This document shows, in pieces, positions 1 to 48,330 of a stretch of 64,000 nt of DNA. The stretch spans positions 4,608,001-4,672,000 of the forward strand of contig CBDETK010000013.1 in the NCBI GenBank assembly GCA_965242865.1, read 5' to 3'. Each line of letters begins with the position of its first letter. The stretch's first letter is position 1. This DNA is from Candidatus Latescibacterota bacterium (lineage in GTDB: Bacteria; Latescibacterota; UBA2968; UBA8231). The translations under genes and the position numbers were made by a program. Below the pieces are notes generated by a model, which did no database searches, was not told where the DNA came from, and saw nothing but the letters and a program-made list of their open reading frames with translations.

Positions 1-1260
1 GGTGAAGTCTATAGCGTCGATCCCGCCTACAGCACCAGTTCCTTTCTAGCCGGCACCCAAAACGACGCAGCCGATATCAACTACGACGATGACCTCCGTT
101 TTGTGTACGAATTCGTTGATGACAACGACGACCAAGACCGCAACCCCGACTGGCAGCGGGCCAATTTCTCGCAGGATAGGAAAATTTTCCCCGGGTTCGA
201 CGAAAACAACGATTTCATTAACGACTTCAATCAGAATGACTCCGAGGATCGCTGGAATACGGTGCCAGACTACGAGGAGCCTTTTCTCCGCTACGCCTCG
301 GATCGGCCCGAATTCCTCTTTGGAGTCGATATGAACAACAACGGCATCGTCGACCGCTTTGAAAACGACATTCTGCCCGACTACCTATACAAACGGGATC
401 GGCGCGGATACAACATCTACGTGGGGTCTCATTTGGGGCCAGAGGCGCGGCTGACCGTTGGGCGCCTCGACGAGCGCCAGCTAGCCGACGCCCGCGAAAA
501 CGTCACCAATTACGCCTTGCTGACCTTTGACAAGGACTACGCCAGCAAGGGGCGCGTGCAAGTGTACAACAACTATCGAAGAGTCCAAGACAATATTCGC
601 GACGACGTGATTGAATGGGTGGTGCGCGAGGGGTCGCGCGGCGACTTAGTGCCCTATACCGATCTCCTGCCCCTGCGCGATGGTTGGGCCAATACCCTGT
701 ACTTGGGCTATCAATACCAGAGCGACCGCATCCACTTCAAAAACCGCGCTAAGTGGGAGGTTTTCAAGCAATCCAATTTCGCCGACCGCCCCATTGAGGA
801 GCAGGACATCCGCGAGACCGCTTCCTTCTTTGGGATCCTCAATAAGGTTGATTACACGTTTGACCTCGGCGTCCTCAAGCTGCAGCCGCGCTGGAAGAGC
901 GAGTTCCAGCGCCAGCGGCCATCGCGCCGCGAAGATACGCAGGTGCGGTTGGCTACTACGGAATTGCGCGAGCTCTGGTCTTTGGTCGTGCGCGTACCCA
1001 TCTTGGCGCGCACCGAATTGCAGACCGGCCTAGAGTACCTGCTCGTCGAGCAGTTCCGCGAGGATCTGGAAACCCACTTGCTGCGCTCGGATCGCAACGA
1101 GATGGTCTTTGCCCTGCAGTTTACCAACAATGCCGAATACCTAGGCTATAATCTGTGGACCCAGACCGGGTTCCGCGTGTCGCGGATCGATCGCGCCTCG
1201 GCCGAAAGGACGCGCACCGAAACAGCCATGTTCGTCACCGTGTTCGCTGGCTTAGAGTAG
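1..1260 (+). CDS. 5'-truncated predicted outer-membrane protein with acidic DxNxD segment; paralog of 45599..48328 and 48331..51051
   Basis: Frame is open from base 1 (GEVYSVDPAY...). Shares VDDNDDQD..FPG[FW]DENNDFINDFNQND..PDYEEPFLRY.SDRPEFLFG.D[ML]NNNG..DRFEND and C-terminal YLGY..FAGLE with both paralogs; alternating beta-strand-like C-terminal half. Confidence 0.8.
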   Translation, partial: GEVYSVDPAYSTSSFLAGTQNDAADINYDDDLRFVYEFVDDNDDQDRNPDWQRANFSQDRKIFPGFDENNDFINDFNQNDSEDRWNTVPDYEEPFLRYASDRPEFLFGVDMNNNGIVDRFENDILPDYLYKRDRRGYNIYVGSHLGPEARLTVGRLDERQLADARENVTNYALLTFDKDYASKGRVQVYNNYRRVQDNIRDDVIEWVVREGSRGDLVPYTDLLPLRDGWANTLYLGYQYQSDRIHFKNRAKWEVFKQSNFADRPIEEQDIRETASFFGILNKVDYTFDLGVLKLQPRWKSEFQRQRPSRREDTQVRLATTELRELWSLVVRVPILARTELQTGLEYLLVEQFREDLETHLLRSDRNEMVFALQFTNNAEYLGYNLWTQTGFRVSRIDRASAERTRTETAMFVTVFAGLE

Positions 1261-1270
1261 GAGGTTTTTC

Positions 1271-2029
1271 ATGCTGAACTATTTCACGCCGCTGCTTTTG
1301 GCCGGGCTGTTTTTTTCGGGCTGCTCCTATCGCTACTACGCCGAAGACCTCACGCCGATGAGCGAGGCCGAGCAAGGAGCCAACAAGACGGTGGCCGACG
1401 ACGGTACGGTGTCTTATAGACAGGCCCGGCTCGAAATTAGCCTGCGGCCGATGACCGACGAGGAGTTGAACCGCCAGTTCAGCACCTACTCCAATGAGGG
1501 CGCTGACTCGCGCAACCCCTACACTTTTGGCAATTCGACGCACTTTCGCACGGGGGACACCCCGCAGCGATTCACCGTCTTTCGCCTGTACCTTTCTAAT
1601 TACGAATACCCCAAGGTCTATCTCGACCCCAAAGAGGTCTATATAACCACTTCTAACGGGCGCAAGTACTACGCACTGAGGCACGAGCAGCTTTCGATAT
1701 ATTATCGCCGGTATGTCGGCGGCGGCATCGGGGGCAACGACCCTGGGACGCCCGGTAACGCTCGCTACGTCTGGCAGGAACGCATCGGCGTCCTGCGGGG
1801 TACGATGTTTCCCGATGAGGAAGTGTTCAGCGCCCAAGAGAGCGAGGGGTATCTCGTCTTTAAGCCGCTGGCCCCAGATGTGGAAGAACTGACCGTGCAT
1901 ATTCCCGATGTGGTGGTGCGCTTCGACTTCAAGGGAGATCCGATTGAGGCCGTGGACGTCGAAATGCACTTTGAGCGGGAGATCGGCCGCATCTACCCCG
2001 ACGGGAGCAAGGTGGCGACCGGCCAATAG
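1271..2029 (+). CDS. Lipoprotein of unknown function; paralog of 19362..20111
   Basis: GGAGG RBS; lipobox LFFSG-C; shared blocks VADDGT, PMTDEELNRQF, NPYTFGN, QRFTVFRL, RFDF. Confidence 0.8.
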   Translation: MLNYFTPLLLAGLFFSGCSYRYYAEDLTPMSEAEQGANKTVADDGTVSYRQARLEISLRPMTDEELNRQFSTYSNEGADSRNPYTFGNSTHFRTGDTPQRFTVFRLYLSNYEYPKVYLDPKEVYITTSNGRKYYALRHEQLSIYYRRYVGGGIGGNDPGTPGNARYVWQERIGVLRGTMFPDEEVFSAQESEGYLVFKPLAPDVEELTVHIPDVVVRFDFKGDPIEAVDVEMHFEREIGRIYPDGSKVATGQ

Positions 2030-15340: not shown

Positions 15341-17995
15341 TCAATAGACCAGCGAGAGGGTACCCGTATAGGCCGTGGAGGTCGCGTCCGAATCTGCGAC
15401 GAGCCGGTAGAGATAGATCCCCGGCGGTGCGAGTTGGCCGTGGCTTGCGCGGCCATCCCACTTAATTTGGACGTTGCTCGCGGGCGAGCCGCCGGTGTGT
15501 ATCTCGGCGATGGAGCGGCCGGACAGGTCGTAGATGGTGACGTGAACGTTAACCGGCTCTAAGAGGCGGACGAGATCAAAGGAAAAGATCGCCTCGTCGT
15601 TGATGCCATCGCCGTTGGGGGTAAAGGGGTTGGGAATGATACGGGGCGCCTCGATGAGCTGATTGATCTCGTCGGCGACCACGAGGCGGGCGTTGGTGGC
15701 TATGTCCGGGGTGGCGTCTCCATCTTCGGTCGGCTGGGGGATAAATTCGACGTCGTGGCCGCTCTGGTCGTTCCACACCGTGCTGACGAACTCTTCTGAG
15801 CCGCGGAAGAGCTTGGAACGAAAGACGATTTCGATGTTTTCCCCGAGTTGGAAATGCTCCGCGCCCATTGTGGGCAGCTTGATGTGTAGCTTGGACGAGC
15901 CGGTGAGCGGGTCGGAAATTAGGCTCTGAGCGAATTGCCCGAGGCTGTCGGAGCGGCCCGCGGCTGGAGCGAGGCGGCTGGGACGAACATCGCGCAGCGG
16001 ATCGGCGGCCGTGCCAGCCGCGATTTCGACCCAATCTTGGCCGTCAAAGCGCAAGGTGTCGATGCGCGTGTCGGCACTGGGCACGGCGATCTCGATGCGG
16101 TTGAAGGAGGTGGCCTCGCCCGTTTTGAAGAATGGCCGGACAAAGTAGCGGAAAGCAGTCTCCTCGCCCAAGGTGACGTACGGGGGAAAAATTTCGGCGA
16201 CGATCCCGCCCGAGACCAGCGGCGCGTCGTAGTCGAACTCGATGAAGTCCAACCGGGCCGCGCTGTGCTGGGCGGAATCAAAGAAGATGCGGAACTGGAT
16301 GTAGCGAGTGCCGCCGGGCAGAGGCAGCTGGACGCCGGCGTTTTGCCACTCGGATTCGGGCAAGCTCTCGTCGATAAGCCCGTCTTCGAGCTTGAACGGT
16401 GCCGACCAGAAGCTCCAGCCCAAGAGGCCGTCGTCGCCTAGGTCAACCCCTAGCTCGTTGTACTGAAGCTCGTGTTCGGGGACGCGGCCTTCGGGGAGCT
16501 TGATCCAAGAAAATAGGTCGAGGGGTACGCCGTTTTCGTCTTGGGTGTCGGAGAGGCCCGGGCCTAAGCGGCGGGCGTATATGTGGGTGTCGAGGGTGTT
16601 GCCAACGCGGAACTGGATGCGGACATCGCTGTCGCGGCTGTCCCGACGCCCGCGCCAACGGACCTTGCCCCAGTTGACTTGGCCGCCGGCCACATCAAAG
16701 GGAAACTGGCTTTCATACCCAGCGCGATCCGAGCCGGCGAACTGCTCAATCTCTCGGTCGTAGCGACGAATGCGCGGGGTGGGTGTGCCCACGTCAATGA
16801 TCGCCGAGGTGTACCGTGCGTCGATGGCGTAGCCGTCGCCGAAATAGCTAGCTTCGGCGGTCTCCACGTAGGTGCCTTTGGGATCAATCGAGACTATGTC
16901 GAGGCGGCCGGCGACAAAGGGCAGTCCGAATCGGATATCCTTGACTACCGGATTGAACTGGCCGTTGATGACAGGGACTAATGTTTTGCTCGCTTGGATA
17001 GTTTCGGAGCGGCTGTCGATGGTGGTGGGGTCTCCATAGCGGATGAAGTAGTTGGCAATAGTGGTGGCGGGCAAGGTCGGCCGTGGACGGAAGACAATGC
17101 GATTGAGATAGTAGTAGCCCATCAGGTTGATGCCGACTCCGCCGCGGCCGTAAAGGGCGGAGCCGTATTCGGTACGCAGGTTGCCGTCAACCGACTTTTC
17201 TGCATCGACTCGACCGATTACCTGCGCGGTCGACCAGTAGTCTGCCGAAATCGGGTCAGCTATTTCACGGCGGAAGCCGTATTCGCTCGGCACCACCATA
17301 AAGGGGCGCTGAGGAGTCTTACCGGGGATGATGCCGCCGAACTCGCCGATCTTGAAGCGCTGGTTGAGCAGGTAGGCGAGGTTTCGCAGGCTGTCCAAAT
17401 GCACCGGCCTAATCCAAGAGGTAACTCCCCCACCGTGTTCGGGCAGTGGCGGGTCTTCATCGATCAGCCCGTCGTTGTCGTCGTCGAGAGCATTGACCGG
17501 ATCTTCGTTGAGCAGTCCGTCCCAGTCGTCGTCAAAAGGAGAATACAACCCGTCCTCATTGAGCAGCCCATCGCCGTCATTATCGAACTGAGGATCCGGC
17601 CCATCCTCGTCGATGCGCCCGTCGAGGTCGTTGTCGAAAAATTCCGGGGGGTCTTCGTCGATGAGGCCGTCGCCATCGTCGTCGCGCCCGTTGGCTGGGT
17701 CTTCGTTGATCTGGCCGTCGTCGTCATTGTCAACTTGTGGGTCTATGGGGTCTTCGTTGATCTGGCCGTCGTCATCGTTGTCGACTAGCTCGACCGGGTC
17801 TTCGTCGATGCGCCCGTCGCCATCGTCGTCGGCGATCAACTCGACAGCCCAGCTACGGCCCAAGTCGAGACGACCTGTGACCGGCCGCAGGGTCCAAGGA
17901 TGCACATCGTCGCCGATGCGCCACCGCTTGATTTCGGCGTAGCCGTTGCTGAGTATAGACGCGACGCCGAGTGCCGCTACCAACAACCTGATCAT
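15341..17995 (-). CDS. Exported protein: Asp-rich Ca-binding-like repeats, discoidin-like domain and FlgD-Ig/CHU_C-like C-terminal domain
   Basis: GGAGG RBS; signal peptide; 8 x DxDxDGx[IL][DN]ED[PG]; WSFWSAPF; PNPFTPNGDGIND, YDLSGR, WDGR, PGIYLY, terminal LSLVY. Confidence 0.85.
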   Translation of the reverse strand: MIRLLVAALGVASILSNGYAEIKRWRIGDDVHPWTLRPVTGRLDLGRSWAVELIADDDGDGRIDEDPVELVDNDDDGQINEDPIDPQVDNDDDGQINEDPANGRDDDGDGLIDEDPPEFFDNDLDGRIDEDGPDPQFDNDGDGLLNEDGLYSPFDDDWDGLLNEDPVNALDDDNDGLIDEDPPLPEHGGGVTSWIRPVHLDSLRNLAYLLNQRFKIGEFGGIIPGKTPQRPFMVVPSEYGFRREIADPISADYWSTAQVIGRVDAEKSVDGNLRTEYGSALYGRGGVGINLMGYYYLNRIVFRPRPTLPATTIANYFIRYGDPTTIDSRSETIQASKTLVPVINGQFNPVVKDIRFGLPFVAGRLDIVSIDPKGTYVETAEASYFGDGYAIDARYTSAIIDVGTPTPRIRRYDREIEQFAGSDRAGYESQFPFDVAGGQVNWGKVRWRGRRDSRDSDVRIQFRVGNTLDTHIYARRLGPGLSDTQDENGVPLDLFSWIKLPEGRVPEHELQYNELGVDLGDDGLLGWSFWSAPFKLEDGLIDESLPESEWQNAGVQLPLPGGTRYIQFRIFFDSAQHSAARLDFIEFDYDAPLVSGGIVAEIFPPYVTLGEETAFRYFVRPFFKTGEATSFNRIEIAVPSADTRIDTLRFDGQDWVEIAAGTAADPLRDVRPSRLAPAAGRSDSLGQFAQSLISDPLTGSSKLHIKLPTMGAEHFQLGENIEIVFRSKLFRGSEEFVSTVWNDQSGHDVEFIPQPTEDGDATPDIATNARLVVADEINQLIEAPRIIPNPFTPNGDGINDEAIFSFDLVRLLEPVNVHVTIYDLSGRSIAEIHTGGSPASNVQIKWDGRASHGQLAPPGIYLYRLVADSDATSTAYTGTLSLVY
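17450..17830 (-). repeat. Eight coding repeats of a 12-aa acidic motif (16-17 aa period)
   Basis: DDDGDGRIDEDP, DNDDDGQINEDP x2, DDDGDGLIDEDP, DNDLDGRIDEDG, DNDGDGLLNEDG, DDDWDGLLNEDP, DDDNDGLIDEDP. Confidence 0.9.
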
Positions 17996-18349: not shown

Positions 18350-18378
18350 TTGACACGTCTTAGGCCATTGATTATCAT
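18350..18378 (+). promoter_or_regulatory. sigma70-type promoter for the rightward operon (18394 to 26935)
   Basis: TTGACA-N17-TATCAT. Confidence 0.7.
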
Positions 18379-18393: not shown

Positions 18394-19365
18394 TTGAAAG
18401 CCATCAAAACGAATGAGAAGGGGTCGGCTGAGGTGCTGGTCGCGTTTGTTTTTTTAGGGCTGATGCTATGGATGACAGTAGGCTCAGTTAAACCGGCTCT
18501 GGCGCATTATCCCGCAGGAGTGGCCTACAGAGCTTTTCAATTTCCCGACCACTTGGTCCCCGCCATTGACGGAGACTTGAAAGATTGGGAAGTTGTAGGC
18601 GACTCTTACGTCGTATTAACGGATCAGTTTCACGATCTAATTAGTCCAGAAGTTGAGGCGAGTGATTCGGATGATTTTGCTGCTCGTCTCATGGTAGGGT
18701 GGAACAAAGCGGAGAACAGAATTTACATAGCCGCTCAGGTCCGCGATGATATACACCAAATCGATCGTCCCGCTGGCAGTGCTACGATGCTTTTCCAAGA
18801 CGACGCGATGGAATTGTTTATTGACGCGGACCACTCAGGTGGACAATTTGCGAATTTCACCGAGTTGAGCCACGAAGAGCAGAGGCGGCGCAACGGGGCT
18901 GAGGCCAACCATTTCGTTTTGGCTGGCCCGCCGCCCGACGAGGATTTTTTCGTCAACTTTTCCGCCGCCGCTTGGTACGCGCTACCCGATGGCCCCTATT
19001 CCGGCGCGGCGGTCGAGTTTATCGGTGTCTTGGGAGGAGAGGGCGTGACGAATTACGAAGTCATGCTCGTGCCATTTGATCGGGTCGATATCAATGCGGT
19101 CTTTCAAAGCGAAGAGCATATCTTGCAAGAAAATGAAATCCTTGGTTTTAACGTAGAGTTTAACGACTTCGACGTGCATTCAGAGCTTTTTGACGCTAAA
19201 TGGTCGCTTTCGGGCCAACACAATTCTTATCGCTTTTCCGATCGCTTTACCGACTTGATCCTAATGCCACTAGAGGGTACTTTTACGGCTGTGGAGCCGA
19301 GGTCTTGGGGGCGTTTGAAAGCCTCTTTGCACACAGAGCAGTACCATCAAGGAGTTTCTGAATGA
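18394..19365 (+). CDS. Exported CBM9/DOMON-like protein with C-terminal TAVE..SWGRLK tail; start uncertain
   Basis: Signal peptide (..ALA-H); PAIDGDLKDW, VGWN..RIYIAAQVRDD, DAMELFIDADHSGG, GFNVEFNDFD; paralog of 39723..40613. Confidence 0.75.
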   Translation: MKAIKTNEKGSAEVLVAFVFLGLMLWMTVGSVKPALAHYPAGVAYRAFQFPDHLVPAIDGDLKDWEVVGDSYVVLTDQFHDLISPEVEASDSDDFAARLMVGWNKAENRIYIAAQVRDDIHQIDRPAGSATMLFQDDAMELFIDADHSGGQFANFTELSHEEQRRRNGAEANHFVLAGPPPDEDFFVNFSAAAWYALPDGPYSGAAVEFIGVLGGEGVTNYEVMLVPFDRVDINAVFQSEEHILQENEILGFNVEFNDFDVHSELFDAKWSLSGQHNSYRFSDRFTDLILMPLEGTFTAVEPRSWGRLKASLHTEQYHQGVSE

Positions 19366-20111
19366 TGAGTCCCACACGAGTATTATTATTCTTGGCCTTG
19401 GTTATCGGCTCGGGTGTGCTAGGCTGTGGATATAGCTATTACACGGGGCCATTGCAGCCCGGCCAAGATCAGGCCTCGTTGATCAGCGTGGCAGATGACG
19501 GGACCTTGACCTTTGCCCAAGATCGTTTTGAAGTGCGACTTAAGCCGATGACCGATGAAGAATTGAATCGCCAGTTTTTCAATAATTCCCAAGCAGGTCC
19601 TAAGTCCACAAACCCCTATACCTTTGGCAACACGGTATTTTGGGGGACGGATAAAGAAAAACAGCGATTTACCGTCTTCCGTCTCAGCGTTAAGAATTAC
19701 GCCTACCCCAAAGTCAGAATTGATCCGAGCAAAATCGTCGTCAAAGCGAGCAATAATCGCGAGTATTGGAGCCTCAACTTTGAGCAGCTCGACACGTATT
19801 ATCGCGCCTATGCCATAGGTTATAGAGGCAATGAATATGCCCGCTACCAAGAACGTCGCGACTTGCTGCGGCGGACGATGCTCAAAGACGAGGAGATCTT
19901 CAGCGGTCAAGAGACGGAGGGCTTCGTTGTTTTCCCCGTGCTCCACCCCGACGTGAGTGATATCGAAGTCCAAGTGCTCAATGTAATCCTGCGATTTGAC
20001 TTTCGCAACGAGCCGGTGGAGACCACCAATATTTCCTATAAATTCGTCCGAGATATCGGCAAAGTTTACAAGGACGGCACGGTCGTCCCTAGAGTTGCTA
20101 AGGCAAACTAG
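19362..20111 (+). CDS. Lipoprotein of unknown function; paralog of 1271..2029
   Basis: ATGA overlap with upstream gene; lipobox GVLG-C; collinear similarity with 1271..2029. Confidence 0.82.
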   Translation: MMSPTRVLLFLALVIGSGVLGCGYSYYTGPLQPGQDQASLISVADDGTLTFAQDRFEVRLKPMTDEELNRQFFNNSQAGPKSTNPYTFGNTVFWGTDKEKQRFTVFRLSVKNYAYPKVRIDPSKIVVKASNNREYWSLNFEQLDTYYRAYAIGYRGNEYARYQERRDLLRRTMLKDEEIFSGQETEGFVVFPVLHPDVSDIEVQVLNVILRFDFRNEPVETTNISYKFVRDIGKVYKDGTVVPRVAKAN

Positions 20112-20115
20112 CCTT

Positions 20116-20129: not shown

Positions 20130-20154
20130 AGATTACCAAGGAGGAGTTGGCATT

Positions 20155-21117
20155 ATGAAATCTCTGAAAATGCTTAGTGTTTTAGTCGGCTTGCTGTTAG
20201 TCGCCCAATCAAGCGAAGGGGTTGTGAACATTCAGAATGTCGGTTCGGGTGCTCGGGCGCAGGGGTTGGGCAACAGCTTCGTGGCGGTGGCAGACAATGC
20301 GGATGCCGTGTTTGCCAACCCGGCGGGGTTGGGTCAGGTGTCGGGTCGTCAGGTTTCCTACACGAACGTGTCGCTGTTGTATGTGGGAATTGACGGCAAT
20401 GATCTGGGGCAACACGTGGTTTCGTACGCGCAGCCGCTGGGCGACAAGCTGGGGCTGGGGTTGGGCTATGAGCGGATCGGCTCGTCGCTGATGAGCGAGA
20501 ACGGGGCGTTTGTGTCGGTGTCGTATCAGGTGCAGCGTCGGCTGCAGGTGGGGGTGTCGGCCAAGTATTTGTTTTGGAGTGTCGGCGCGATTCCCCCCGA
20601 TCCCGATAATGGGCGGGAGGATCCGGTATCAAACAAGAGCGCGGGCAATGTGGGCTTGGATTTGGGGTTGTTGTGGCAGAGTCCGGTGGCTGGGGCGCAG
20701 GTGGGGGTGTTGTTGAAGAACATCAATCAGCCGAATGTGAAGTGGGGCGAGGTCAAAGACGCCAGCGGCCAGGTGGATTCGGATGCGGGTGGGTTGCCGA
20801 TGGATGTGCATATTGGAGTGGGCTATCGTCTGAGCAGCCAGTCGTTGGTGTCGGTTCAGTATGTGCGTCACGATGCGACGGGGGATGGTTCGGACAACAG
20901 GGTGGTGGTTGGGGGGGAGACGCAGTTGTTGGAGGGGCTGGTGTTGCGTGCGGGGGGTCGTCGCTTGCTGTCGGATTCAGAGGATTCGGGTGCGGGCTTG
21001 AACGCGGGGTTGGGGTATCAGTGGAACCAGTTGGTATTCGATTATGCCTATGACATCGGCTTGGAGTTGACCGATACCAATGGAGCGCACCGGTTCTCCT
21101 TTGCCTACGAATTCTAA
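20155..21117 (+). CDS. PorV/PorQ-like (FadL-fold, UPF0164-like) outer-membrane beta-barrel
   Basis: AAGGAGG RBS; signal peptide; GARAQGLGNSFVAVADNADAVFANPAGL; GLDLGLLW, LVLRAG, GLNAGLGY, FDYAY, terminal HRFSFAYEF beta-signal. Confidence 0.85.
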   Translation: MKSLKMLSVLVGLLLVAQSSEGVVNIQNVGSGARAQGLGNSFVAVADNADAVFANPAGLGQVSGRQVSYTNVSLLYVGIDGNDLGQHVVSYAQPLGDKLGLGLGYERIGSSLMSENGAFVSVSYQVQRRLQVGVSAKYLFWSVGAIPPDPDNGREDPVSNKSAGNVGLDLGLLWQSPVAGAQVGVLLKNINQPNVKWGEVKDASGQVDSDAGGLPMDVHIGVGYRLSSQSLVSVQYVRHDATGDGSDNRVVVGGETQLLEGLVLRAGGRRLLSDSEDSGAGLNAGLGYQWNQLVFDYAYDIGLELTDTNGAHRFSFAYEF

Positions 21118-21170
21118 AACCAAAAAGCCCCCGATGAACTCCAAATTAGTATAGACAAGGAGATGCACAA

Positions 21171-24100
21171 ATGACGGTCTGGGCCGGACTTATCGCGCTG
21201 GGATTGGGGCTAGGAGCTAGCCTTTTTCTGCCGGTGCCGCAAAATCTGAAGACCAGTTTTGACGCCGGACAATCTCTCTATGCCCTTGGCGAGTTTGAAG
21301 GGGCGATCATTGAGTATTCAAAGATCGTCAAGTTTGATAGCAGGGCCGTGCGCACCGATAGTGTACGGGTGATGTTTGGCAACGACTTGGAATTACCCGT
21401 AGTCGCGGCGGCTTGGTATCAGCTAGGCAATGCTTACAAAAAGAGCGGACAGCACGAAAAAGCGGTGGAGGCCTACCGCCAAGTTATTGATGTAGGGAGC
21501 GTGGCCGAGGATTTCAAGTCGTTAGTGCAGTTCCAAGTCGCCGAGACCCGCTTCCTCGCCAAAGAGTACGGCGAGGCCGCAAAGGAATACAAGCGCTATG
21601 TCGAGTTGTTTCCCGAAACGAAGGAAGCCGGCAAGGCGTATTTTTACGCGGGCTGGAGCGAGTTTAATACCAAAGAATACGACCAGTCCATCGAAACGCT
21701 CAACGGCATGTTGGCGGCTTATCCGCAAGATCGCTACGCGCCGGATTCTCAGTTCCGCATCGCCAGTGCGCTTTATGAGAAGGGCGATTACGCCCAAGCC
21801 GTTGAGATGACCCAGGTAGTCCTCGACAAGTATCCCAATAGTCCGGTCATTGCCCAAGCCCTCTATCTGAAGGCCAATGCCTATGACCAGATGGGGCGCG
21901 ACGCGGAGGCGATTAAAGCCTACCGCGATGTGCGCGACCTCTACGACCGGATGTTTGAACTCTTGCGCGGCTCGTTCCGCGAGGGTAAGAACGTCGATTT
22001 TGAAAACTATCGACAGCTTTTTGAGACCTCCTCATTGCGCGTCGCTGAGATTTTCCGTAAAACAGACCAGTTTGAGGAAGCCTATCAAGAGTTGATCGCG
22101 GCCCAAGAAACCGCTGAGGAGCGCTTTTATAAGGCCAAGGTGCAGATGAGAATCGGCGACAACTACATGGAGTGGAATAAGTTCGACGAGGCATGGACCG
22201 CTTATAACCAAGTGATCGAACTCTACGGGGATACGCCGTACCCACCTAACGCTCAGTATCAGAAAGGCGAAGCTAAATACTTCGCCGGAGACTACGCGGC
22301 TGCCCGTGAAGACTACCTCCAACTGTTGGAAGACTACCCGGACAGCGATACGGGTTTGCGCTCCGCAGCACTCTACAGCGCAGGTTGGTCCGCTGAGAAA
22401 TTCGGCGGGGTGGACCAAGCTATCGCAAGCTATACGCAAGCAGTGGACAACTTCCCCCGCTCCGATCAAGCTCCGTTGTGCTTGTTGCGCATTGCTCGGC
22501 TCAGCTACGAGCAGCAGAAAGTCGATGAGGCCATTGAAGCCTACAAGGCCATAACGGAGAGCTATCAGGATACGCGGCATACGGCTGATGCGTACTATGG
22601 CCTTGGTATTCTCTACCGCGACGAGGATCGGAAAGACGAGGCCGTTGCTGCTTTTTCCAAAGTGGACCGCGACGCCCGCGAGACGTACATCGCCGCGCTG
22701 ATTGAGGCGGCCAATATCTATATTTCCCAAGATCGCACTGCCGAGGGGCGTGCGTTGCTCAATCAATTGCTGGAAGGTGTAACCGGCGACCGCGACTTGG
22801 AGGCTAGGGCCCATTTCCAGATGGCCCAACTCGACCTCAACAACAAAAACTACGTCGACGCAGTCGAGCGTTACAGCTTGGTGCTTGAAGAATACCCAGA
22901 GAGCGATGTCATTCGCGATACCCGCTACGGTCGTGCATTGGCCTATCACTATTCGGGCCGCTACGACCGTGCGCTGGTCGATTACAAGTGGCTATTGGAC
23001 ACCAAAATTCCCAAGGCTATGCAGCTAAAGGTCACGTTCTCAATGGCCCTCTCGTACTCTGCGGAAGGCAACGACGAAGAGGCCGAGAAGCTGCTAAACG
23101 AAGTCGTTGCTTCAGGGGACGAGAGCTTGGTGCGTTCGGCGAGGTTGCAGCTGATCTCAATGGCCGAAAAGAAGGGCAATCCAGAGGAAGCCGTACATAT
23201 CTACGAGGAGATGTTGGCTACTACTACCTCTAGCGAAGACCGGGAGCGTTTACTCATTCGCTTGGCCAATGCCTACTTCAAATTGGATAAGTTTCAACAG
23301 AGCATTGATGCGGCTCAGGAGCTAATTGACTTGGCCATCAATGCCGAGAGCATTGCCAACGCACTCTTCGTCCAAGGCAACTGCTTCTATAAGTCGGAGC
23401 AATTCGTCCAAGCGATTGCTACTTATAACACCATTATCGAAAATTACCCGCAGATTGCTTGGGCCAGAAACGCTCAGTTCCAGATCGGCGTAGCGTATAA
23501 CAGGCTATCGGCCAACGGCAATGTCGAAGTACTTCCAGCCATGTCAAAGGCGTTCAATGCCTATTACACTCAATATCCCGAAGATGACCGCGCGGTGCAT
23601 GCCTACTACTACGATGCTTGGGCGCATTATCGGATGGGTAAATGGCGCGCTGCCAGCGATATTTTTGCCAGCCTAGCAAATAAGTATCCTCAGTCTCGCT
23701 ATGCCTCTGAGGCACTCTTTCGCGCTGGTGATGCCCTGTTTAACATGACCAACCGGAGCGGCGCAGAGAACAAAAACCAGAACTTCCTAGACGCCATGGT
23801 TTTCTACAACCGCATCATTAAGGGCTATCCTAGGTCGAGTCATGTGGACGACGCGCTTTACAACAAGGCTTGGTGCCTGATCAACCTTGACCGGAAGGAA
23901 GAGGCAGTGCCCGTCTTCGAGCGCATCGTTGCGGATCATTCCGATGGGACTTATGGGGCACGCAGCCAATTTACGCTCGGAGATTACTATTACGGCCTCA
24001 AGGACTATGAGAAGGCCACCGAGAGCTACCAAGCTTTCTTGGAGCGCTTTCCCGCTGATAAGCTGATTGCCCAAGATCGAGTGCTGCCCAAAAAGGCGAG

Positions 24101-24416
24101 AACCCTGCTCGGGCATTTGGCTGAGATCGATGCCTACAATCTTTATGCAACGGGCGAAAAGCTCTTAGCTGAGAAGAACTACGACGAGGCCATGGCGATT
24201 TTCAAGGAGGTGCAGCAGAAGTACCCCAAGAGCGACCAAGCTGTCAACTCGCTGGTCAACATCGGTGCTGCCTATATGGCCCAAGAGGAATTCCGCCAAG
24301 CCGGTGCTGTCTTTCAGGAGGTCGTCGATAACTATGGCGACAGTCCCAAGTACAGGACGCAGGTGGATTATGCCAGAGAGCAGCTAGAGGTAATGCAGGA
24401 AGCTCGCGTCCTATAA
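21171..24416 (+). CDS. Large TPR protein (1081 aa), BamD/CpoB-type repeats, N-terminal hydrophobic anchor
   Basis: AAGGAG RBS; roughly 20 or more TPRs with recurring YPxS..A.YxxG; N-terminal TM or signal. Confidence 0.88.
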   Translation: MTVWAGLIALGLGLGASLFLPVPQNLKTSFDAGQSLYALGEFEGAIIEYSKIVKFDSRAVRTDSVRVMFGNDLELPVVAAAWYQLGNAYKKSGQHEKAVEAYRQVIDVGSVAEDFKSLVQFQVAETRFLAKEYGEAAKEYKRYVELFPETKEAGKAYFYAGWSEFNTKEYDQSIETLNGMLAAYPQDRYAPDSQFRIASALYEKGDYAQAVEMTQVVLDKYPNSPVIAQALYLKANAYDQMGRDAEAIKAYRDVRDLYDRMFELLRGSFREGKNVDFENYRQLFETSSLRVAEIFRKTDQFEEAYQELIAAQETAEERFYKAKVQMRIGDNYMEWNKFDEAWTAYNQVIELYGDTPYPPNAQYQKGEAKYFAGDYAAAREDYLQLLEDYPDSDTGLRSAALYSAGWSAEKFGGVDQAIASYTQAVDNFPRSDQAPLCLLRIARLSYEQQKVDEAIEAYKAITESYQDTRHTADAYYGLGILYRDEDRKDEAVAAFSKVDRDARETYIAALIEAANIYISQDRTAEGRALLNQLLEGVTGDRDLEARAHFQMAQLDLNNKNYVDAVERYSLVLEEYPESDVIRDTRYGRALAYHYSGRYDRALVDYKWLLDTKIPKAMQLKVTFSMALSYSAEGNDEEAEKLLNEVVASGDESLVRSARLQLISMAEKKGNPEEAVHIYEEMLATTTSSEDRERLLIRLANAYFKLDKFQQSIDAAQELIDLAINAESIANALFVQGNCFYKSEQFVQAIATYNTIIENYPQIAWARNAQFQIGVAYNRLSANGNVEVLPAMSKAFNAYYTQYPEDDRAVHAYYYDAWAHYRMGKWRAASDIFASLANKYPQSRYASEALFRAGDALFNMTNRSGAENKNQNFLDAMVFYNRIIKGYPRSSHVDDALYNKAWCLINLDRKEEAVPVFERIVADHSDGTYGARSQFTLGDYYYGLKDYEKATESYQAFLERFPADKLIAQDRVLPKKARTLLGHLAEIDAYNLYATGEKLLAEKNYDEAMAIFKEVQQKYPKSDQAVNSLVNIGAAYMAQEEFRQAGAVFQEVVDNYGDSPKYRTQVDYAREQLEVMQEARVL

Positions 24417-24454
24417 CGTTGATTTCTTTGCGTCCTAACTTAAGGAGGAAAAAA

Positions 24455-25108
24455 ATGATTGAACTTTTTCGAGAAGGCGGACCTTTCATGTATCCTTTGG
24501 GGCTCTGGTCTATGCTTTCCATTGCGTTCTTTCTCGAGCGCATCTGGACTTATGCCCGGCTGCGCTCCGAGGATGAGTTGGCCGAAATCACCAACGATGT
24601 CAATGCGCGTATAGACTCGGGTGCTTCCATTGACCAACTCAAGGAGTACTGCTCCGAGGTCGGCAAGCTGGAAGGTGAGGTGTACGGCGAGGGGCTAGAG
24701 CGCTTTGAGCATTTGTCGCGCGAGCAGCGCACGATGGAGGAGATGCGCGAGGAAATGAACGGCACGGTTGAACGCGCCGCCTTGGGATACCTCGAACGGT
24801 ATCTGGCCGTTATTGACTTCGTCTCCAAATCCGTGGTGTTGCTCGGCCTGCTGGGTACGGTCAATGGTATGATCAATGCGTTTGAAGGTATTGCGGAAAA
24901 GGGTCTCGGTGAGCCGACGATCGTGGCCGCAGGTATCTCCGAAGCACTGATCACCACAGTTACCGGGCTGGTGATCGCCGTGCCTTCAATTGCTATCTTC
25001 ACGTACTTTAGCAACCGCGCCACAGGCAAGGCCGTTGAGTTTGAAGCATACGGCCACGGTTTTGTGGACGCCCTGCTGCGTCGCTGGCAAGGCACTCAGG
25101 CTGCCTAA
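24455..25108 (+). CDS. exbB: MotA/TolQ/ExbB proton-channel protein
   Basis: TAAGGAGG RBS; GGPFMYPL, LLGLLGTVNGMINAF, VAAGISEALITTVTGLVIAVP. Confidence 0.93.
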   Translation: MIELFREGGPFMYPLGLWSMLSIAFFLERIWTYARLRSEDELAEITNDVNARIDSGASIDQLKEYCSEVGKLEGEVYGEGLERFEHLSREQRTMEEMREEMNGTVERAALGYLERYLAVIDFVSKSVVLLGLLGTVNGMINAFEGIAEKGLGEPTIVAAGISEALITTVTGLVIAVPSIAIFTYFSNRATGKAVEFEAYGHGFVDALLRRWQGTQAA

Positions 25109-25141
25109 AGGCAGCTCTTCCTTTAAGGAGGGATGAGATAG

Positions 25142-25549
25142 ATGGCTCAGAGAGTAGATAAAAAAGAACTGACCATGCCCGACCTGACGCCGATGATCGA
25201 CGTGGTCTTTCAGCTACTCATCTTCTTCATGGTGACTGCTGTGTTCGCCATTACTCCAGGTTTGGACATCAAACTGCCCGAGGCCGAAGAAGCGCAGGCT
25301 CCGGAGAAGGAGAACCTTTTTATCGTCGTGGATCAGGACGGGAACATGAAGCTGAACCACAAATCGGTGACCTTTGCGACCCTCAAAGAGGAACTGCAGG
25401 CCAAGAGGCAGCTACTAGACAACACCACGATGATTATCATCCAAGGCGACGAGCGTTCCACGCACGGACAGATCGTCCAGATCATGGATATTGCTCGCCA
25501 AGTGGGCGTTGTTGATCAGGTCATCGCCACGGAACCGCAGCGCAACTAG
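25142..25549 (+). CDS. exbD: ExbD/TolR biopolymer transport protein
   Basis: DLTPMIDVVFQLLIFFMVT (catalytic Asp), IKLPEA, IIQGD..HGQIVQIMD. Confidence 0.95.
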   Translation: MAQRVDKKELTMPDLTPMIDVVFQLLIFFMVTAVFAITPGLDIKLPEAEEAQAPEKENLFIVVDQDGNMKLNHKSVTFATLKEELQAKRQLLDNTTMIIIQGDERSTHGQIVQIMDIARQVGVVDQVIATEPQRN

Positions 25550-25573
25550 GTCCTTCCAAGAGGGGGAAGAACT

Positions 25574-26935
25574 GTGGTAGACGAGTATAAAAAATCAGTA
25601 CAGGCCCAGCGCCAAAAAACGGCCTATATAGCGGTCGGCGCGGCCCTTTTTATTCACGTACTTTTCATCCTATCTAAGTGGGTGGTGATCGCGGCTGGCT
25701 TGGCGGGTGCCGGGGTGCTGTTATACGCCCTATATACGGCAACCACTGGCCGCCGGCTAAGCATGAGCGTGGCCTTTGTGCTCTCGGTCGCCATTCACGC
25801 TGGCGTCTTCGTTTATGATTATCTCTTTGGCATTGGCGAAGAACAGCAAAAAGAGGAGCTAATAATTTTCCGCGCTCCTCCGCCGATTCTCGAAAAGAAC
25901 TTCGACTTAGCCAAGCGTCCCGAGATATCCGAAGTGCAGATGGAGATGCTACAGTCGATGGCACCGCCGGATTTGTCGCAGGATATATCGGCGATAGCCG
26001 ATGTTAGCGCGGTAGGTAGCGACCTCCTGAGTTCGGTTTTGCCTGGTACGCAGGTTTTAGGGGCCTTCTCAGGGGCCAAGGCCGAGGAGTTGGCCTTTGA
26101 CGAGGTCGCGATGATCGAGCTGGCTGAAACGTCGGCGCCGGTGCAAGAGGCCCTGAGTCTGAGGCACGAATTGCTCAATGTCGGCGACTTGGACATTGGT
26201 CGCTACCAAGCGATCTTGATTCACGATCCAGACAACAAACGCAATATTCGCGGCTTCTTTAACATGACGGTCATCGACTACGACATCGCAGACAAGAACC
26301 GAGATCGGTTCCCAACAGCGGTAGAGGAGTTGATGCGCTATATGCGCGACCATACCCAAATCAATGCCCGCATTGAGGGCACGACCTTGGAGTTTTCGGA
26401 TCCGCGCATCATGGACGCCCCCATGATTTACGTGACGGGATGGGATGCCGTCTTGCAAATCAGCGATACAGAGAAGACCAACTTGGGTGAATATCTCAAG
26501 AACGGTGGTTTTCTCTATGCCGAGGAAATTCGCCATAGCGACGCTGAGAACCAGCTTGAAGGCAAAGAAGCCGGGGTTTCAGGTACGCCGTTTGACCGCC
26601 AATTCAAGGCAACAATGAAAGATCCGCTGGTGCTGGGTAGCGACGGCTCTAAGTGGCAGAAAGTGCCCAAGAGTCACCCGCTGTACTACAGTTTCTGGGA
26701 TTTTCCCGATGGCCCACCCATGGGCGGTGCCCCCGGTGGCAATGTGTTCGACTTGGAGATGCTGGAGTTGCGCGGTCGGGTGGCGGTGGTTTTCAGCGAC
26801 CTGAATATTAGTTGGTATTGGGGTGATCCGCTGGCCGATGCCCGAGAGCGCGGGTTGCAGTTCGGGGTCAACCTAATCGTCTATGCGTTGACCCAGCCGG
26901 GCGGCATCGCCAACGTGACTCAGTTTACCCAATAG
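25574..26935 (+). CDS. Membrane-anchored DUF4159-like protein with TonB-like TM/linker N-terminus
   Basis: TM with LSVAIH (SxxxH); acidic/Pro linker; C-terminal PMIYVTG, LGEYLKNGGFLYAE, HPLYYSFWDF, GRVAVVFS.., GVNLIVYALT. Confidence 0.75.
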   Translation: MVDEYKKSVQAQRQKTAYIAVGAALFIHVLFILSKWVVIAAGLAGAGVLLYALYTATTGRRLSMSVAFVLSVAIHAGVFVYDYLFGIGEEQQKEELIIFRAPPPILEKNFDLAKRPEISEVQMEMLQSMAPPDLSQDISAIADVSAVGSDLLSSVLPGTQVLGAFSGAKAEELAFDEVAMIELAETSAPVQEALSLRHELLNVGDLDIGRYQAILIHDPDNKRNIRGFFNMTVIDYDIADKNRDRFPTAVEELMRYMRDHTQINARIEGTTLEFSDPRIMDAPMIYVTGWDAVLQISDTEKTNLGEYLKNGGFLYAEEIRHSDAENQLEGKEAGVSGTPFDRQFKATMKDPLVLGSDGSKWQKVPKSHPLYYSFWDFPDGPPMGGAPGGNVFDLEMLELRGRVAVVFSDLNISWYWGDPLADARERGLQFGVNLIVYALTQPGGIANVTQFTQ

Positions 26936-36043: not shown

Positions 36044-36057
36044 GTCGGTGCTTGCTG

Positions 36058-48328: not shown

Positions 48329-48330
48329 CC

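What the first reader, a model, noticed from the sequence alone, without database searches (positions are those of the whole stretch)
20155..26935. PorV-like barrel co-transcribed with a giant TPR protein, ExbB, ExbD and a TonB-like protein
Seen: a tight same-strand operon, mostly with clear RBSs. Known: the canonical T9SS motor is GldL/GldM rather than ExbB/ExbD; TPR + TolQ/TolR-like + TonB-like + OM barrel is the architecture of Tol-Pal and Agl-Glt. Inference: a hybrid trans-envelope machine in which the 1081-aa TPR scaffold links an ExbBD motor to a PorV-fold barrel.
Basis: partly seen in the sequence, partly recalled or inferred. Interest (0 to 1): 0.75.

Follow-up and report, generated by a model that had tools for sequence, protein, structure and literature searches.

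The report
Ton-like motor operon with unusual transducer
This is a real seven-gene operon for a proton-driven, Ton/Tol-like envelope machine whose TonB-like arm ends in an uncharacterised DUF4159 domain, and it belongs to a large, undescribed family of such loci in Latescibacterota-like bacteria.

Summary
The five genes are real, at the stated coordinates, tightly spaced on one strand. The operon probably starts earlier, at 18394, with a CBM9-like gene and a lipoprotein gene.

- **Barrel:** a modelled 14-stranded barrel of the PorV/PorQ/PorP sequence superfamily. It is below every NCBIfam cut-off and above Pfam's PorP_SprF cut-off.
- **"TonB-like" protein:** it has no TonB C-terminal domain. 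It has a membrane helix with a TonB-type Ser-x3-His, a disordered linker of about 100 residues with a conserved box, and a DUF4159 domain (ThuA/GATase1-like fold).

A survey of 78 related loci, anchored on DUF4159, shows a recurrent module. It contains a giant TPR protein, ExbB/ExbD, the DUF4159 protein, the lipoprotein family and paired ~900-aa proteins. The family holding the window's CHU_C-tailed proteins is frequently nearby.

The barrel appears in only 7 of 78 loci. Its order is conserved in the nearest relatives found, and in Neomarinimicrobiota- and Lentisphaeria-labelled genomes.

Its specific claim that the TPR links the motor to the barrel is untested, and the barrel looks accessory.

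The closest published concept is the vWA-ended force transducer found behind TPR-tolQ-tolR genes (2025). I rate this a new variant of a known kind.

The parts
18350..18378 (+). sigma-70-like promoter site ahead of the first gene
   Evidence: TTGACA, 17 nt, TATCAT: 11 of 12 positions match. This is a consensus match only. The region held 6 such sites against 6.4 expected from shuffles.
18394..19365 (+). CBM9-like protein (323 aa) with an N-terminal hydrophobic segment; probable first gene of the operon
   Evidence: Pfam CBM9_1, 24.8 bits against a cut-off of 23.4. A 248-aa CBM9 gene sits in the divergent exbB-exbD-exbD operon of related locus L036.
19362..20111 (+). lipoprotein (249 aa), short form of a conserved family that usually sits directly after the DUF4159 gene
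   Evidence: The lipobox Gly-Cys is invariant in 20 of 20 aligned members. BLASTP to 38 locus proteins gives E 2e-36 to 6e-8. A family member lies directly downstream of DUF4159 in 31 of 69 loci that have room for it. No Pfam family.
20155..21117 (+). outer-membrane barrel (14 strands in the model) of the PorV/PorQ/PorP superfamily (320 aa)
   Evidence: Pfam PorP_SprF 36.2 bits (cut-off 22.3). NCBIfam PorV/PorQ 76.8 bits (cut-off 90). AF2 model has 14 strands, pLDDT 70, pTM 0.71. Foldseek matches FadL at 2e-12 and PorV 6h3i_F with TM 0.71. The protein ends ...AYEF and has no Cys.
21171..24416 (+). giant TPR protein (1081 aa) with an N-terminal hydrophobic anchor; not a lipoprotein
   Evidence: TPR_6 276 bits. 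NCBIfam YbgF/CpoB model 299 bits in 10 stretches, BamD model 228 bits. The N-terminal hydrophobic stretch followed by a Pro-rich motif is shared by 36 full-length relatives. A TPR gene lies upstream of DUF4159 in 31 of 52 loci with room for it.
24419..25108 (+). ExbB/TolQ-type stator subunit; the true start is probably ATG 24455
   Evidence: Pfam MotA_ExbB 81.7 bits. PDB sequence search: ExbB 5sv0 at 2.5e-12, TolQ 9avi at 1.1e-11. NCBIfam TolQ and ExbB equivalog cut-offs are not reached.
25142..25549 (+). ExbD/TolR-type stator subunit with Asp20 in its membrane helix
   Evidence: Pfam ExbD 98.4 bits. PDB sequence search: ExbD at 1.7e-8, TolR at 1.5e-5. The Asp is read from the sequence.
25574..26935 (+). 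TonB-like transducer (453 aa): three hydrophobic segments, the third with Ser71-x3-His75; conserved box at residues 99-116; disordered linker to about residue 199; DUF4159 C-terminal domain
   Evidence: Pfam DUF4159 89.5 bits. His75 is present in at least 90% of 38 diverse relatives. AF2 gives pLDDT below 50 for residues 90-100, 106-112 and 120-199, and the C-terminal domain is mostly confident. Foldseek top hit is 4i66 at 2.2e-11, followed by ThuA-like proteins and IFT52.
15341..17995 (-). divergently transcribed neighbour: 884-aa protein with a type-B-like T9SS C-terminal domain
   Evidence: Pfam CHU_C 34.1 bits (cut-off 27). NCBIfam type-B and type-A tail models fall below their cut-offs.
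45599..51051 (+). two tandem ~900-aa proteins (909 and 906 aa) of the family that most often accompanies the module elsewhere; probably part of the same system, not of the operon
   Evidence: The family is found in 44 of 78 loci. No Pfam match at E<=1 and no PDB sequence match of note. Flanked by three same-family genes at 40696-42543, 43382-45586 and 50975-53572; two of them have CHU_C tails and 43382-45586 shows FlgD_ig only.
1..2029 (+). second pair: C-terminal part of a ~900-aa family member (1-1260), then a second short lipoprotein (1271-2029)
   Evidence: HMM map. The two window lipoproteins are 46% identical.

Best explanation
The operon 18394-26935 encodes a proton-motive-force-driven, Ton/Tol-type trans-envelope module with a non-canonical force transducer.

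**Proposed mechanism**
- ExbB and ExbD form the inner-membrane stator.
- The 453-aa protein docks on the stator through its third membrane helix (Ser71-x3-His75).
- A conserved box just after that helix (residues 99-116) is the likely contact with ExbD.
- A disordered linker of about 100 residues crosses the periplasm, possibly running along the membrane-anchored 1081-aa TPR protein.
- The DUF4159 domain takes the place of the TonB/TolA C-terminal domain as the part that grips an outer-membrane partner.
- In this operon the candidate partners are the lipoprotein and the PorV/PorP-like barrel. By analogy with PorP/SprF, the barrel may hold the type-B-tailed surface protein encoded divergently next door.

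**Wider context**
The module is one copy of a large paralogous family of loci in Latescibacterota-like bacteria. These loci combine the same parts with paired ~900-aa secreted proteins and with the family holding the window's CHU_C-tailed proteins. This suggests a role in handling surface enzymes or taking up their products.

**Shown versus inferred**
- Shown: gene content, family memberships, folds, the conserved His, and recurrence of the gene order.
- Inferred: every physical contact, the direction of force, and the output.
For: - **Stator genes.** They pass Pfam cut-offs. ExbD has the membrane Asp, and ExbB has GLLGTV and ITTVTG motifs in its last helices. The role of these residue types is described in Williams-Jones 2025, section 8.
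- **Transducer.** His75 is nearly invariant in 38 diverse relatives, as are F99, P104, L106, K108, K114 and P116, with E at the position where the window has D111.
- **His and exbD adjacency.** Among 71 full-length DUF4159 genes with at least 700 bp upstream, 13 of 13 directly preceded by exbD have the His, against 30 of 58 others.
- **Layout.** AF2 gives helix, then disorder, then a globular C-terminal domain. The C-terminal domain matches the solved DUF4159 protein 4i66 (E 2.2e-11, TM 0.78) and then ThuA-like and IFT52 folds.
- **Survey of 78 loci.** TPR upstream in 31 of 52; lipoprotein downstream in 31 of 69; ~900-aa family in 44 of 78; ExbB in the locus in 26 of 52.
- **Published parallels.** TMH-SHLS transducers with a non-TonB C-terminal domain behind TPR-tolQ-tolR genes. 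The Agl-Glt model, in which a TonB-like linker wraps a giant periplasmic TPR protein.
Against: - No contact was tested successfully.
- 28 of 76 full-length relatives lack the membrane His. The whole family therefore cannot work in exactly this way.
- 21 of 78 loci show DUF4159 with none of the other parts in view; some of these contigs are short.
- DUF4159 is also found fused to ECF sigma factors and to BlaR1-type M56 proteins. That fits a sensor or binding role as well as a force-bearing one.
- The His/exbD association is not corrected for shared ancestry.
- The survey kept the best 80 of 435 matches. Its search pattern does not match the window's own motif variant, so the closest orthologues were not examined.
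Confidence: 0.55

Rival explanations
1. The TPR protein is the physical bridge between the ExbBD motor and the PorV-fold barrel. The barrel is the working end of a hybrid T9SS/Ton machine: a GldLM-independent way to energise a PorP/PorV-type carrier.
For: - Barrel-TPR-ExbB-ExbD-DUF4159 recurs in L001 and L004. With a ~900-aa gene inserted it also recurs in L020, L023, L078 and L030.
- In L020, L023 and L078 a CHU_C-tailed protein gene sits directly before the barrel. This is the PorP-like/type-B cargo pairing described by Gorasia 2022 (abstract).
- In Bacteroidota, SprF is coupled to a motor-driven track (Liu 2025, abstract and section 6).
Against: - The barrel is in only 7 of 78 loci, and no barrel is visible in L002 and L009, which are of the same in-line type.
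- In the 31 loci with a TPR gene upstream, the gene just before the TPR is a ~900-aa family member in 15 and the barrel in 2.
- The barrel has no Cys and no C-terminal tail, so it lacks the SprF Cys-x-Cys coupling device.
- No test of TPR-barrel contact was possible.
Confidence: 0.2
2. A nutrient-uptake locus resembling a polysaccharide utilisation locus. The transducer energises import through outer-membrane proteins, either the ~900-aa family or the barrel acting as a FadL-like channel. The secreted glycan-binding proteins feed this import.
For: - Many paralogous loci occur per genome; 16 loci come from one assembly.
- Neighbouring genes carry F5/8-type-C, GHL10 and CBM9 domains and T9SS tails.
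- FadL-family entries give the barrel model its lowest Foldseek E-values.
- The F. succinogenes TonB/ExbB/ExbD-domain cluster FSU_2400-2403 and the TPR proteins FSU_2397/2398 are up-regulated on cellulose and were proposed for cellodextrin import (Raut 2019, passages).
- The protein atlas's nearest named cluster for the ~900-aa protein is a TonB-dependent-receptor-like family, at 0.89. This is a lead only.
Against: - The ~900-aa family has no Plug or TonB-dependent-receptor Pfam match even at E<=1, and no PDB sequence relative.
- Its fold is unknown here.
- The window operon itself contains no such gene.
- No FadL-type family is among those the calls list for the barrel.
Confidence: 0.2
3. A trans-envelope signalling device. 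DUF4159 is a periplasmic sensor or binding domain, and the module reports an outer-membrane or periplasmic state, as in TonB-dependent cell-surface signalling.
For: - DUF4159 is fused to ECF sigma-factor domains in 3 of 13 proteins examined, and to BlaR1-type M56 in 2 of 13.
- An HTH gene lies in the window at 57433-57786, which is not adjacent.
Against: - No sigma factor, anti-sigma factor or kinase gene is in or beside the operon.
- The tight pairing with exbD and the His correlation point to motor coupling.
Confidence: 0.1
4. A Tol-Pal-type envelope-maintenance system of this phylum: TolQ, TolR, a TolA substitute and a CpoB-like TPR protein.
For: - ExbB scores slightly higher against the NCBIfam TolQ model (77.6 bits) than against ExbB (51.6 bits).
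- ExbD likewise scores higher against TolR (67.9 bits) than against ExbD (51.8 bits).
- The TPR protein matches the YbgF/CpoB model in 10 stretches.
Against: - No TolB- or Pal-like gene is in the operon.
- A Latescibacteria genome is listed with a canonical tolR-tolA-tolB-pal-cpoB locus in the supplement of Williams-Jones 2025 (passages).
- Many paralogues per genome do not fit a housekeeping system.
- All NCBIfam TolQ/TolR cut-offs are missed.
Confidence: 0.07

Closest known systems
vWA-ended periplasmic force transducers behind TPR-tolQ-tolR-tolR genes (Williams-Jones et al. 2025, Mol Biol Evol; section 8 and supplement passages read)
   Same: - A membrane helix with the SHLS-type His, a disordered linker with a motor box, and a globular non-TonB C-terminal domain.
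[quoted passage not shown]
- Function unknown in both cases.
   Different: - Here the C-terminal domain is DUF4159 (ThuA/GATase1/IFT52-like). No vWA entry is among the 50 Foldseek hits shown, and there is no vWA Pfam match.
- The window has one exbD; relatives L027, L030, L033, L063 and L076 have two.
- The reported phyla were Proteobacteria, PVC, Bacteroidetes and Rhodothermaeota, not Latescibacterota.
- I could not compare sequences directly with their proteins.
TonB-ExbB-ExbD (Ton) system
   Same: - ExbB and ExbD family membership.
- A transducer gene directly after exbD.
- Ser-x3-His in the anchoring helix and a long flexible periplasmic linker.
   Different: - No TonB_C domain.
- The linker is only about 7% proline (sequence).
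- Three hydrophobic segments instead of one.
- No Plug or TonB-dependent-receptor gene in the operon.
- A giant TPR protein, a barrel and a lipoprotein are co-encoded.
Fibrobacter succinogenes FSU_2396-2403 cluster: OmpA, two TPR proteins, ExbB, two ExbD, TonB (Raut et al. 2019, Sci Rep; passages read)
   Same: - The FCB superphylum.
- An outer-membrane protein, large TPR proteins and ExbB-ExbD(-ExbD)-transducer in one neighbourhood.
- A T9SS-using, polysaccharide-degrading organism.
   Different: - That cluster has an OmpA-family protein rather than a PorV/PorP-type barrel.
- Its transducer is annotated as TonB-family.
- I made no sequence comparison.
Agl-Glt gliding machinery of Myxococcus xanthus (Commun Biol 2025 structural model; passages read)
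   Same: - TolQ/TolR-type motor and TonB-like transducers.
- A giant periplasmic TPR protein, around which a transducer linker is predicted to wrap.
- Outer-membrane barrels connected through a TPR protein.
   Different: - The GltG and GltJ C-terminal domains are TonB-CTD-like and carry cytoplasmic FHA/ZnR/GYF domains.
- GltD is a lipoprotein.
- None of the other roughly 17 parts were sought or seen here.
PorP/SprF-like carrier barrels of the T9SS (Gorasia 2022, abstract; Liu 2025, abstract and section 6)
   Same: - Pfam PorP_SprF membership.
- The modelled 14-strand fold is closest by TM-score to PorV.
- A type-B-tailed protein gene lies beside the barrel gene, directly upstream in L020, L023 and L078.
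   Different: - NCBIfam PorP, PorQ and PorV cut-offs are not reached.
- No Cys-x-Cys C-terminal tail.
- Co-encoded with ExbBD rather than working with GldLM/PorLM.

Membership tests
[quoted passage not shown] | Pfam PF01618 at or above its gathering score | tested here: met
   81.7 bits against a cut-off of 22.9.
ExbB or TolQ orthologue (NCBIfam equivalogs) | Score at or above the curated cut-off of TIGR02797 (ExbB) or TIGR02796 (TolQ) | tested here: not met
   TolQ 77.6 bits against 221. ExbB 51.6 bits against 206.2. PDB sequence matches to ExbB and TolQ are nearly equal, at 2.5e-12 and 1.1e-11.
ExbD/TolR family | Pfam PF02472 at or above its gathering score, and an Asp in the membrane helix | tested here: met
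   98.4 bits against a cut-off of 25.4. Asp20 lies in the helix (sequence). The essential role of this Asp is as stated in Williams-Jones 2025.
TonB | TonB C-terminal domain (PF03544 or PF13103) | tested here: not met
   No match at E<=0.01. The C-terminal domain is DUF4159.
TonB/TolA-like force transducers (layout) | Anchoring helix with Ser-x3-His | tested here: met
   Ser71 and His75. His is present in at least 90% of 38 relatives, in 48 of 76 full-length locus proteins, and in 13 of 13 directly after exbD.
TonB/TolA-like force transducers (layout) | Disordered or proline-rich periplasmic linker, then a globular C-terminal domain | tested here: met
   pLDDT below 50 for residues 90-100, 106-112 and 120-199. 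The C-terminal domain is mostly above 85 from about residue 210. The linker is not proline-rich.
TonB/TolA-like force transducers (layout) | Helix binds the ExbB/ExbD (TolQ/TolR) stator | not testable with these tools
   A 5:2:1 complex exceeds the size limit of the complex tool.
vWA-type force transducers (Williams-Jones 2025) | vWA-fold C-terminal domain | tested here: not met
   Foldseek top hits are 4i66, ThuA-like proteins, IFT52 and GATase1. No vWA entry is among the 50 shown. There is no vWA Pfam match.
vWA-type force transducers (Williams-Jones 2025) | [quoted passage not shown] | tested here: met
   The window order is TPR-ExbB-ExbD-transducer. Two exbD genes occur in L027, L030, L033, L063 and L076.
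DUF4159 (PF13709) | Pfam gathering score, and the fold of the solved member | tested here: met
   89.5 bits against a cut-off of 25.9. 4i66 matches at E 2.2e-11 with target TM 0.78.
PorV (T9SS shuttle) | NCBIfam PorV/PorQ family or PorV equivalog at or above its cut-off | tested here: not met
   NF033709 gives 76.8 bits against a cut-off of 90. The PorV equivalog NF033710 is not matched by the window protein, but is matched by 7 of 14 relatives (best E 2.6e-5).
PorV/FadL fold | 14-stranded barrel with an N-terminal segment | tested here: met
   AF2 gives 14 strands, pLDDT 70 and pTM 0.71. PorV 6h3i_F matches with TM 0.71/0.66 and rmsd 4.3; FadL 3pgr matches at E 2e-12. Model confidence is moderate.
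PorP/SprF | Pfam PF11751 at or above its gathering score; NCBIfam TIGR03519 at or above its cut-off | tested here: inconclusive
   Pfam 36.2 bits against 22.3 is met. TIGR03519 at 45 bits against 90.55 is not met. Relatives L001 and L020 give no Pfam hit at 1e-4.
PorP/SprF | Periplasmic C-terminal tail with Cys-x-Cys (SprF and close homologues; Liu 2025) | tested here: not met
   The mature protein has no Cys and ends at the last strand.
Tol-Pal system | TolB and Pal encoded with TolQRA | tested here: not met
   None of the seven operon proteins has a TolB-type or OmpA/Pal-type Pfam match.
Agl-Glt | GltG/GltJ-type transducers with a TonB-CTD-like domain and cytoplasmic FHA/GYF domains | tested here: not met
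   Only DUF4159 was found in the transducer. Other Glt parts were not searched for.

The most novel reading that the evidence does not exclude
DUF4159 may define a third class of periplasmic force transducer, after the TonB/TolA C-terminal domain and the vWA type.

In Latescibacterota-like bacteria such transducers, together with giant TPR scaffolds, would couple ExbBD-type motors to PorP/PorV-type carrier barrels, to lipoproteins and to a new ~900-aa protein family. That would be a GldLM-independent, Ton-type way to power the handling of T9SS-secreted surface proteins. The system would have multiplied into many substrate-specific loci per genome.
Probability: 0.2. Interest if true: 0.8.

Novelty: new variant of a known kind. 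Interest (0 to 1): 0.55.

Why it matters
- **A function for DUF4159.** The domain has a solved structure but no known function. In the held library the terms DUF4159 and PF13709 appear only in the 2015 Pfam paper, and IPR025297, Hoch_4089 and 4I66 appear nowhere. Finding it in TonB's place, behind exbBD with the motor-binding His, gives it a testable role.
- **A broader picture of envelope motors.** It would extend the recent idea that 5:2 motors drive more kinds of envelope machines than Ton, Tol, flagella and T9SS.
- **Biology of uncultured phyla.** The loci are numerous in Latescibacterota-like genomes and sit among secreted glycan-binding proteins. They may be a major, unrecognised part of how these bacteria feed.

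Tried and rejected
- **Co-fold of the DUF4159 domain with the operon lipoprotein.** Residues 196-453 (alignment A1) were folded with residues 23-249 (alignment A4). The result was no verdict, at 0.00 against a mark of 0.32. This counts neither for nor against binding.
- **TPR contacts.** Co-folding TPR with the barrel or with the motor was not possible within the 1000-residue limit.
- **~900-aa family.** No Pfam match at E<=1. A profile against PDB sequences gave only a chance-level hit at E 0.19. The atlas gave only unnamed clusters at 0.99, and a TonB-dependent-receptor-like cluster at 0.89 as a lead.
- **Lipoprotein.** The atlas returned unnamed clusters only.
- **Anti-phage defence.** No PADLOC match for any of the seven proteins, so this was rejected.
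- **Regulatory RNA.** No Rfam family reached its gathering score in or before the operon.
- **Antisense ORFs.** No Pfam family.
- **ExbB phylogeny against ExbB/TolQ/AglR.** Not built, because no reference sequences were on hand. Only profile and PDB scores are given.
- **First neighbourhood pass.** The phmmer pass under-called exbD because of my greedy ORF choice. It was replaced by the six-frame HMM map.
- **Closest orthologues.** Relatives above 90% identity were seen only as proteins. They were not recovered as loci, because the scan pattern does not match their motif variant.


Full report
**1. What is there**

The + strand between 18394 and 26935 holds seven close-packed ORFs:
- a CBM9-like protein (18394-19365)
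- a 249-aa lipoprotein (19362-20111, overlapping the first gene by 4 bp)
- a 320-aa barrel (20155-21117)
- a 1081-aa TPR protein (21171-24416)
- ExbB (24419-25108)
- ExbD (25142-25549)
- a 453-aa protein ending in DUF4159 (25574-26935)

Pfam supports each of the five genes named in the finding. The barrel's best NCBIfam match is the PorV/PorQ family.

A sigma-70-like site matching 11 of 12 positions lies at 18350-18378. A convergent aroA-like gene closes the unit at 26975.

AGGAG-like sites precede four of the five named genes. The exbB start is more likely ATG 24455, judging from the 216-222-aa ExbB of relatives.

Antisense ORFs, Rfam and PADLOC gave nothing.

**2. The barrel**

- By sequence it belongs with PorV/PorQ/PorP. 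All 14 of 14 aligned relatives match NCBIfam PorV/PorQ at E<=0.01 and 11 of 14 match PorP/SprF. No FadL-type family is among those the calls list.
- It misses every NCBIfam cut-off but passes Pfam's PorP_SprF cut-off.
- The AF2 model (14 sequences, pLDDT 70, pTM 0.71) has 14 strands.
- Foldseek gives FadL entries the lowest E-values (2e-12). PorV chains give the best superposition (6h3i_F, TM 0.71/0.66; 8gl6_F, 0.69).
- It has no cysteine and no C-terminal tail. It therefore lacks the Cys-x-Cys device by which SprF is tied to the gliding track (Liu 2025, section 6).

"PorV-like" is a fair description of fold and superfamily. PorV or SprF orthology is not shown.

**3. The "TonB-like" protein**

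It has no TonB_C match. Its layout is as follows:
- Three hydrophobic segments. The third carries Ser71-x3-His75.
- A conserved box at residues 99-116.
- A stretch that AF2 leaves disordered (residues 90-100, 106-112 and 120-199 have pLDDT below 50).
- A confident alpha/beta domain.

That domain matches the solved DUF4159 protein 4i66 (E 2.2e-11, target TM 0.78), and more weakly ThuA-like proteins, the IFT52 N-terminal domain and class-I amidotransferases. No vWA entry is among the 50 hits shown.

A scan of 1.84 billion representatives found 791 relatives at E<=0.001. Many are about 415 aa long, with one helix, a basic box and DUF4159. In an alignment of 38 of them, His75 and box positions 99, 104, 106, 108, 111, 114 and 116 are invariant or nearly so.

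Positive charges before helix 1 and between helices 2 and 3 place the C-terminal domain in the periplasm. This topology is my inference from the sequence.

**4. Neighbourhood survey**

One scan of species-representative genomes, anchored on that alignment, returned 78 loci. By record title:
- 46 are labelled Latescibacter-
- 7 are Gemmatimonad-
- 2 are Neomarinimicrobiota
- 1 is Handelsmanbacteria
- 1 is Lentisphaeria
- 21 are "uncultured bacterium"

The scan kept the best 80 of 435 matches. Its pattern does not fit the window's own motif variant, so the top hits are only 47-56% identical and the closest orthologues are missing.

I clustered all ORFs, built family HMMs and mapped them on six-frame ORFs. 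Counts are:

| Feature | Count |
|---|---|
| Giant TPR gene upstream, same strand | 31 of 52 loci with at least 4.5 kb upstream |
| ExbB between the TPR gene and DUF4159, as in the window | 11 of 52 |
| ExbB anywhere in the locus | 26 of 52 |
| Lipoprotein family directly downstream | 31 of 69 loci with room |
| ~900-aa family | 44 of 78 |
| Family holding the window's CHU_C-tailed proteins | 29 of 78 |
| The barrel | 7 of 78 |
| None of TPR, ExbB, lipoprotein or ~900-aa family in view | 21 of 78 |

Barrel-containing loci fall into three arrangements:
- barrel-TPR-ExbB-ExbD-DUF4159, exactly as here, in L001 and L004
- barrel, a ~900-aa gene, TPR, ExbB, ExbD(-ExbD), DUF4159 in L020, L023, L078 and L030 (the barrel is cut by the locus edge in L030)
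- barrel-DUF4159 in L021

L002 and L009 are of the same in-line type but show cargo, ~900-aa gene, TPR and so on, with no barrel in the sequence held.

Gene order is therefore conserved, and across differently labelled phyla. The barrel, however, is an accessory rather than a core part.

**5. The His and the motor**

- Of 76 full-length locus proteins, 48 have the membrane His and 21 have Leu there.
- All 13 of 13 genes directly preceded by exbD have the His, against 30 of 58 others (Fisher p = 0.001). This is not corrected for relatedness, which inflates the significance.
- The His-less class sits in TPR-DUF4159-lipoprotein-155aa-683aa-905aa-908aa arrays. In most of these an exbB-exbD-exbD-CBM9-TPR operon is transcribed divergently.
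- Long lipoprotein forms (about 410 aa) carry a weak TonB_C-like C-terminal domain in 4 of 4 tested (E 3.5e-5 to 0.16). The window's two copies are short forms without it.

**6. The rest of the window**

The window holds other parts of the same system:
- a partial ~900-aa gene and a second short lipoprotein at 1-2029
- two tandem ~900-aa genes at 45599-51051, among three same-family genes of which two have CHU_C tails
- a DUF6785/DUF6784 gene plus an FG-GAP/ASPIC gene at 32965-37728, as in L014, L015 and L024
- an 884-aa CHU_C-tailed protein encoded divergently from the operon

**7. Mechanism**

I think the module is a Ton-type energy coupler. ExbB/ExbD is the stator, the His-bearing helix docks on it, and the post-helix box contacts ExbD. 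The linker crosses the periplasm, perhaps along the TPR protein, as the GltG linker is predicted to wrap GltD in the Agl-Glt model. DUF4159 would then grip an outer-membrane partner.

Only the parts, folds, conserved residues and synteny are shown. All contacts are inferred. My one co-fold attempt gave no verdict (listed under tried and rejected).

The output could be any of the following:
- handling of type-B-tailed surface proteins through the PorP-like barrel (Gorasia 2022, abstract)
- import through the ~900-aa proteins
- signalling

DUF4159 also occurs fused to ECF sigma-factor domains (3 of 13 proteins examined), to BlaR1-type M56 domains (2 of 13) and to a CarboxypepD_reg domain (1 of 13). 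This shows it is a portable periplasmic module and keeps a sensor role open. From memory, not from a call: TonB_C is fused to M56 proteins in the same way in Bacteroidota.

A housekeeping Tol-Pal role is unlikely. No TolB or Pal is encoded here, there are many paralogues per genome, and a Latescibacteria genome is listed with a canonical tol-pal locus (supplement passages).

**8. Comparison and novelty**

The closest published concept is the vWA-ended transducer family found after TPR-tolQ-tolR-tolR genes (Williams-Jones 2025, section 8). The layout and synteny are the same. The C-terminal domain differs, and so does the reported range of phyla.

The F. succinogenes FSU_2396-2403 cluster is the closest case with expression data.

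Searches of the held library found the following:
- DUF4159 and PF13709 appear only in the 2015 Pfam paper. IPR025297, Hoch_4089 and 4I66 appear nowhere.
- "ExbD" with "Latescibacterota" gave two unrelated papers.
- PorV with ExbB and TPR gave four papers, none of which by title or abstract concerns such a module.
- The 2015 Latescibacteria genome paper mentions only canonical TonB/ExbB/ExbD (passages).

The library lacks most subscription journals, and bioRxiv supplements were closed.

I rate the finding a new variant of a known kind, with interest 0.55.

Noticed in passing
window 18394-26935: The operon is 53.6% G+C against 60.8% for the whole window. The first two genes are about 50%, while the flanking genes are 60-63%. 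This could reflect acquisition from elsewhere or different constraints.
   Followed up: partly
proteins P0259, P0264, P0286, P0312, P0339, P0363: DUF4159 occurs as the C-terminal domain of proteins that begin with ECF sigma-factor domains (3), a BlaR1-type M56 peptidase domain (2) or a CarboxypepD_reg domain (1), out of 13 examined. It looks like a portable periplasmic module.
   Followed up: partly
window 45599-48328, 48331-51051 and 1-1260; L013, L014, L036, L037 and others: A family of ~900-1000-aa secreted proteins, usually in tandem pairs, has an invariant Asp/Asn-rich stretch that resembles calcium-binding repeats (my reading of the consensus). It has no Pfam or PDB sequence match. It is the most frequent companion of the DUF4159 gene, in 44 of 78 loci.
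   Followed up: partly
L024-L026, L029, L031, L032, L035-L037, L039, L041-L044, L046, L048, L050, L071 and others: A subclass of DUF4159 proteins has Leu in place of the membrane His (21 of 76). It sits directly between the giant TPR gene and a lipoprotein, and the long forms of that lipoprotein tested carry a weak TonB_C-like end. In most of these loci exbB-exbD-exbD is transcribed divergently. How this class would couple to a motor is unclear.
   Followed up: partly
loci L012, L016, L021, L022, L027, L028, L033, L053, L054, L058, L061, L064, L069, L073, L074, L077: Sixteen of the 78 loci come from one assembly, and three from one complete chromosome (L024, L035, L070). The family is therefore strongly expanded within genomes.
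   Followed up: no
window 25099-25116: A 7-bp G+C-rich stem-loop spans the end of exbB, in the gap before exbD. It was flagged as terminator-like but has a poor T tail. Such sites are not significantly enriched in the region (18 found against 11.3 +/- 3.5 expected).
   Followed up: no
window 32965-34998 and 35893-37728: A DUF6785/DUF6784 membrane protein and an FG-GAP/ASPIC protein recur beside the module in L014, L015 and L024. A second FG-GAP/ASPIC gene lies at 6848-8725.
   Followed up: no
window 1235-2056 (-) versus 1271-2029 (+): The longer minus-strand ORF is probably spurious. The plus-strand ORF is a second copy of the operon lipoprotein, 46% identical to it.
   Followed up: yes
window 59082-59633: A 183-aa ORF combines a Dynamin_N match with ankyrin repeats. 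This is an unusual pairing for a bacterial protein of this size.
   Followed up: no
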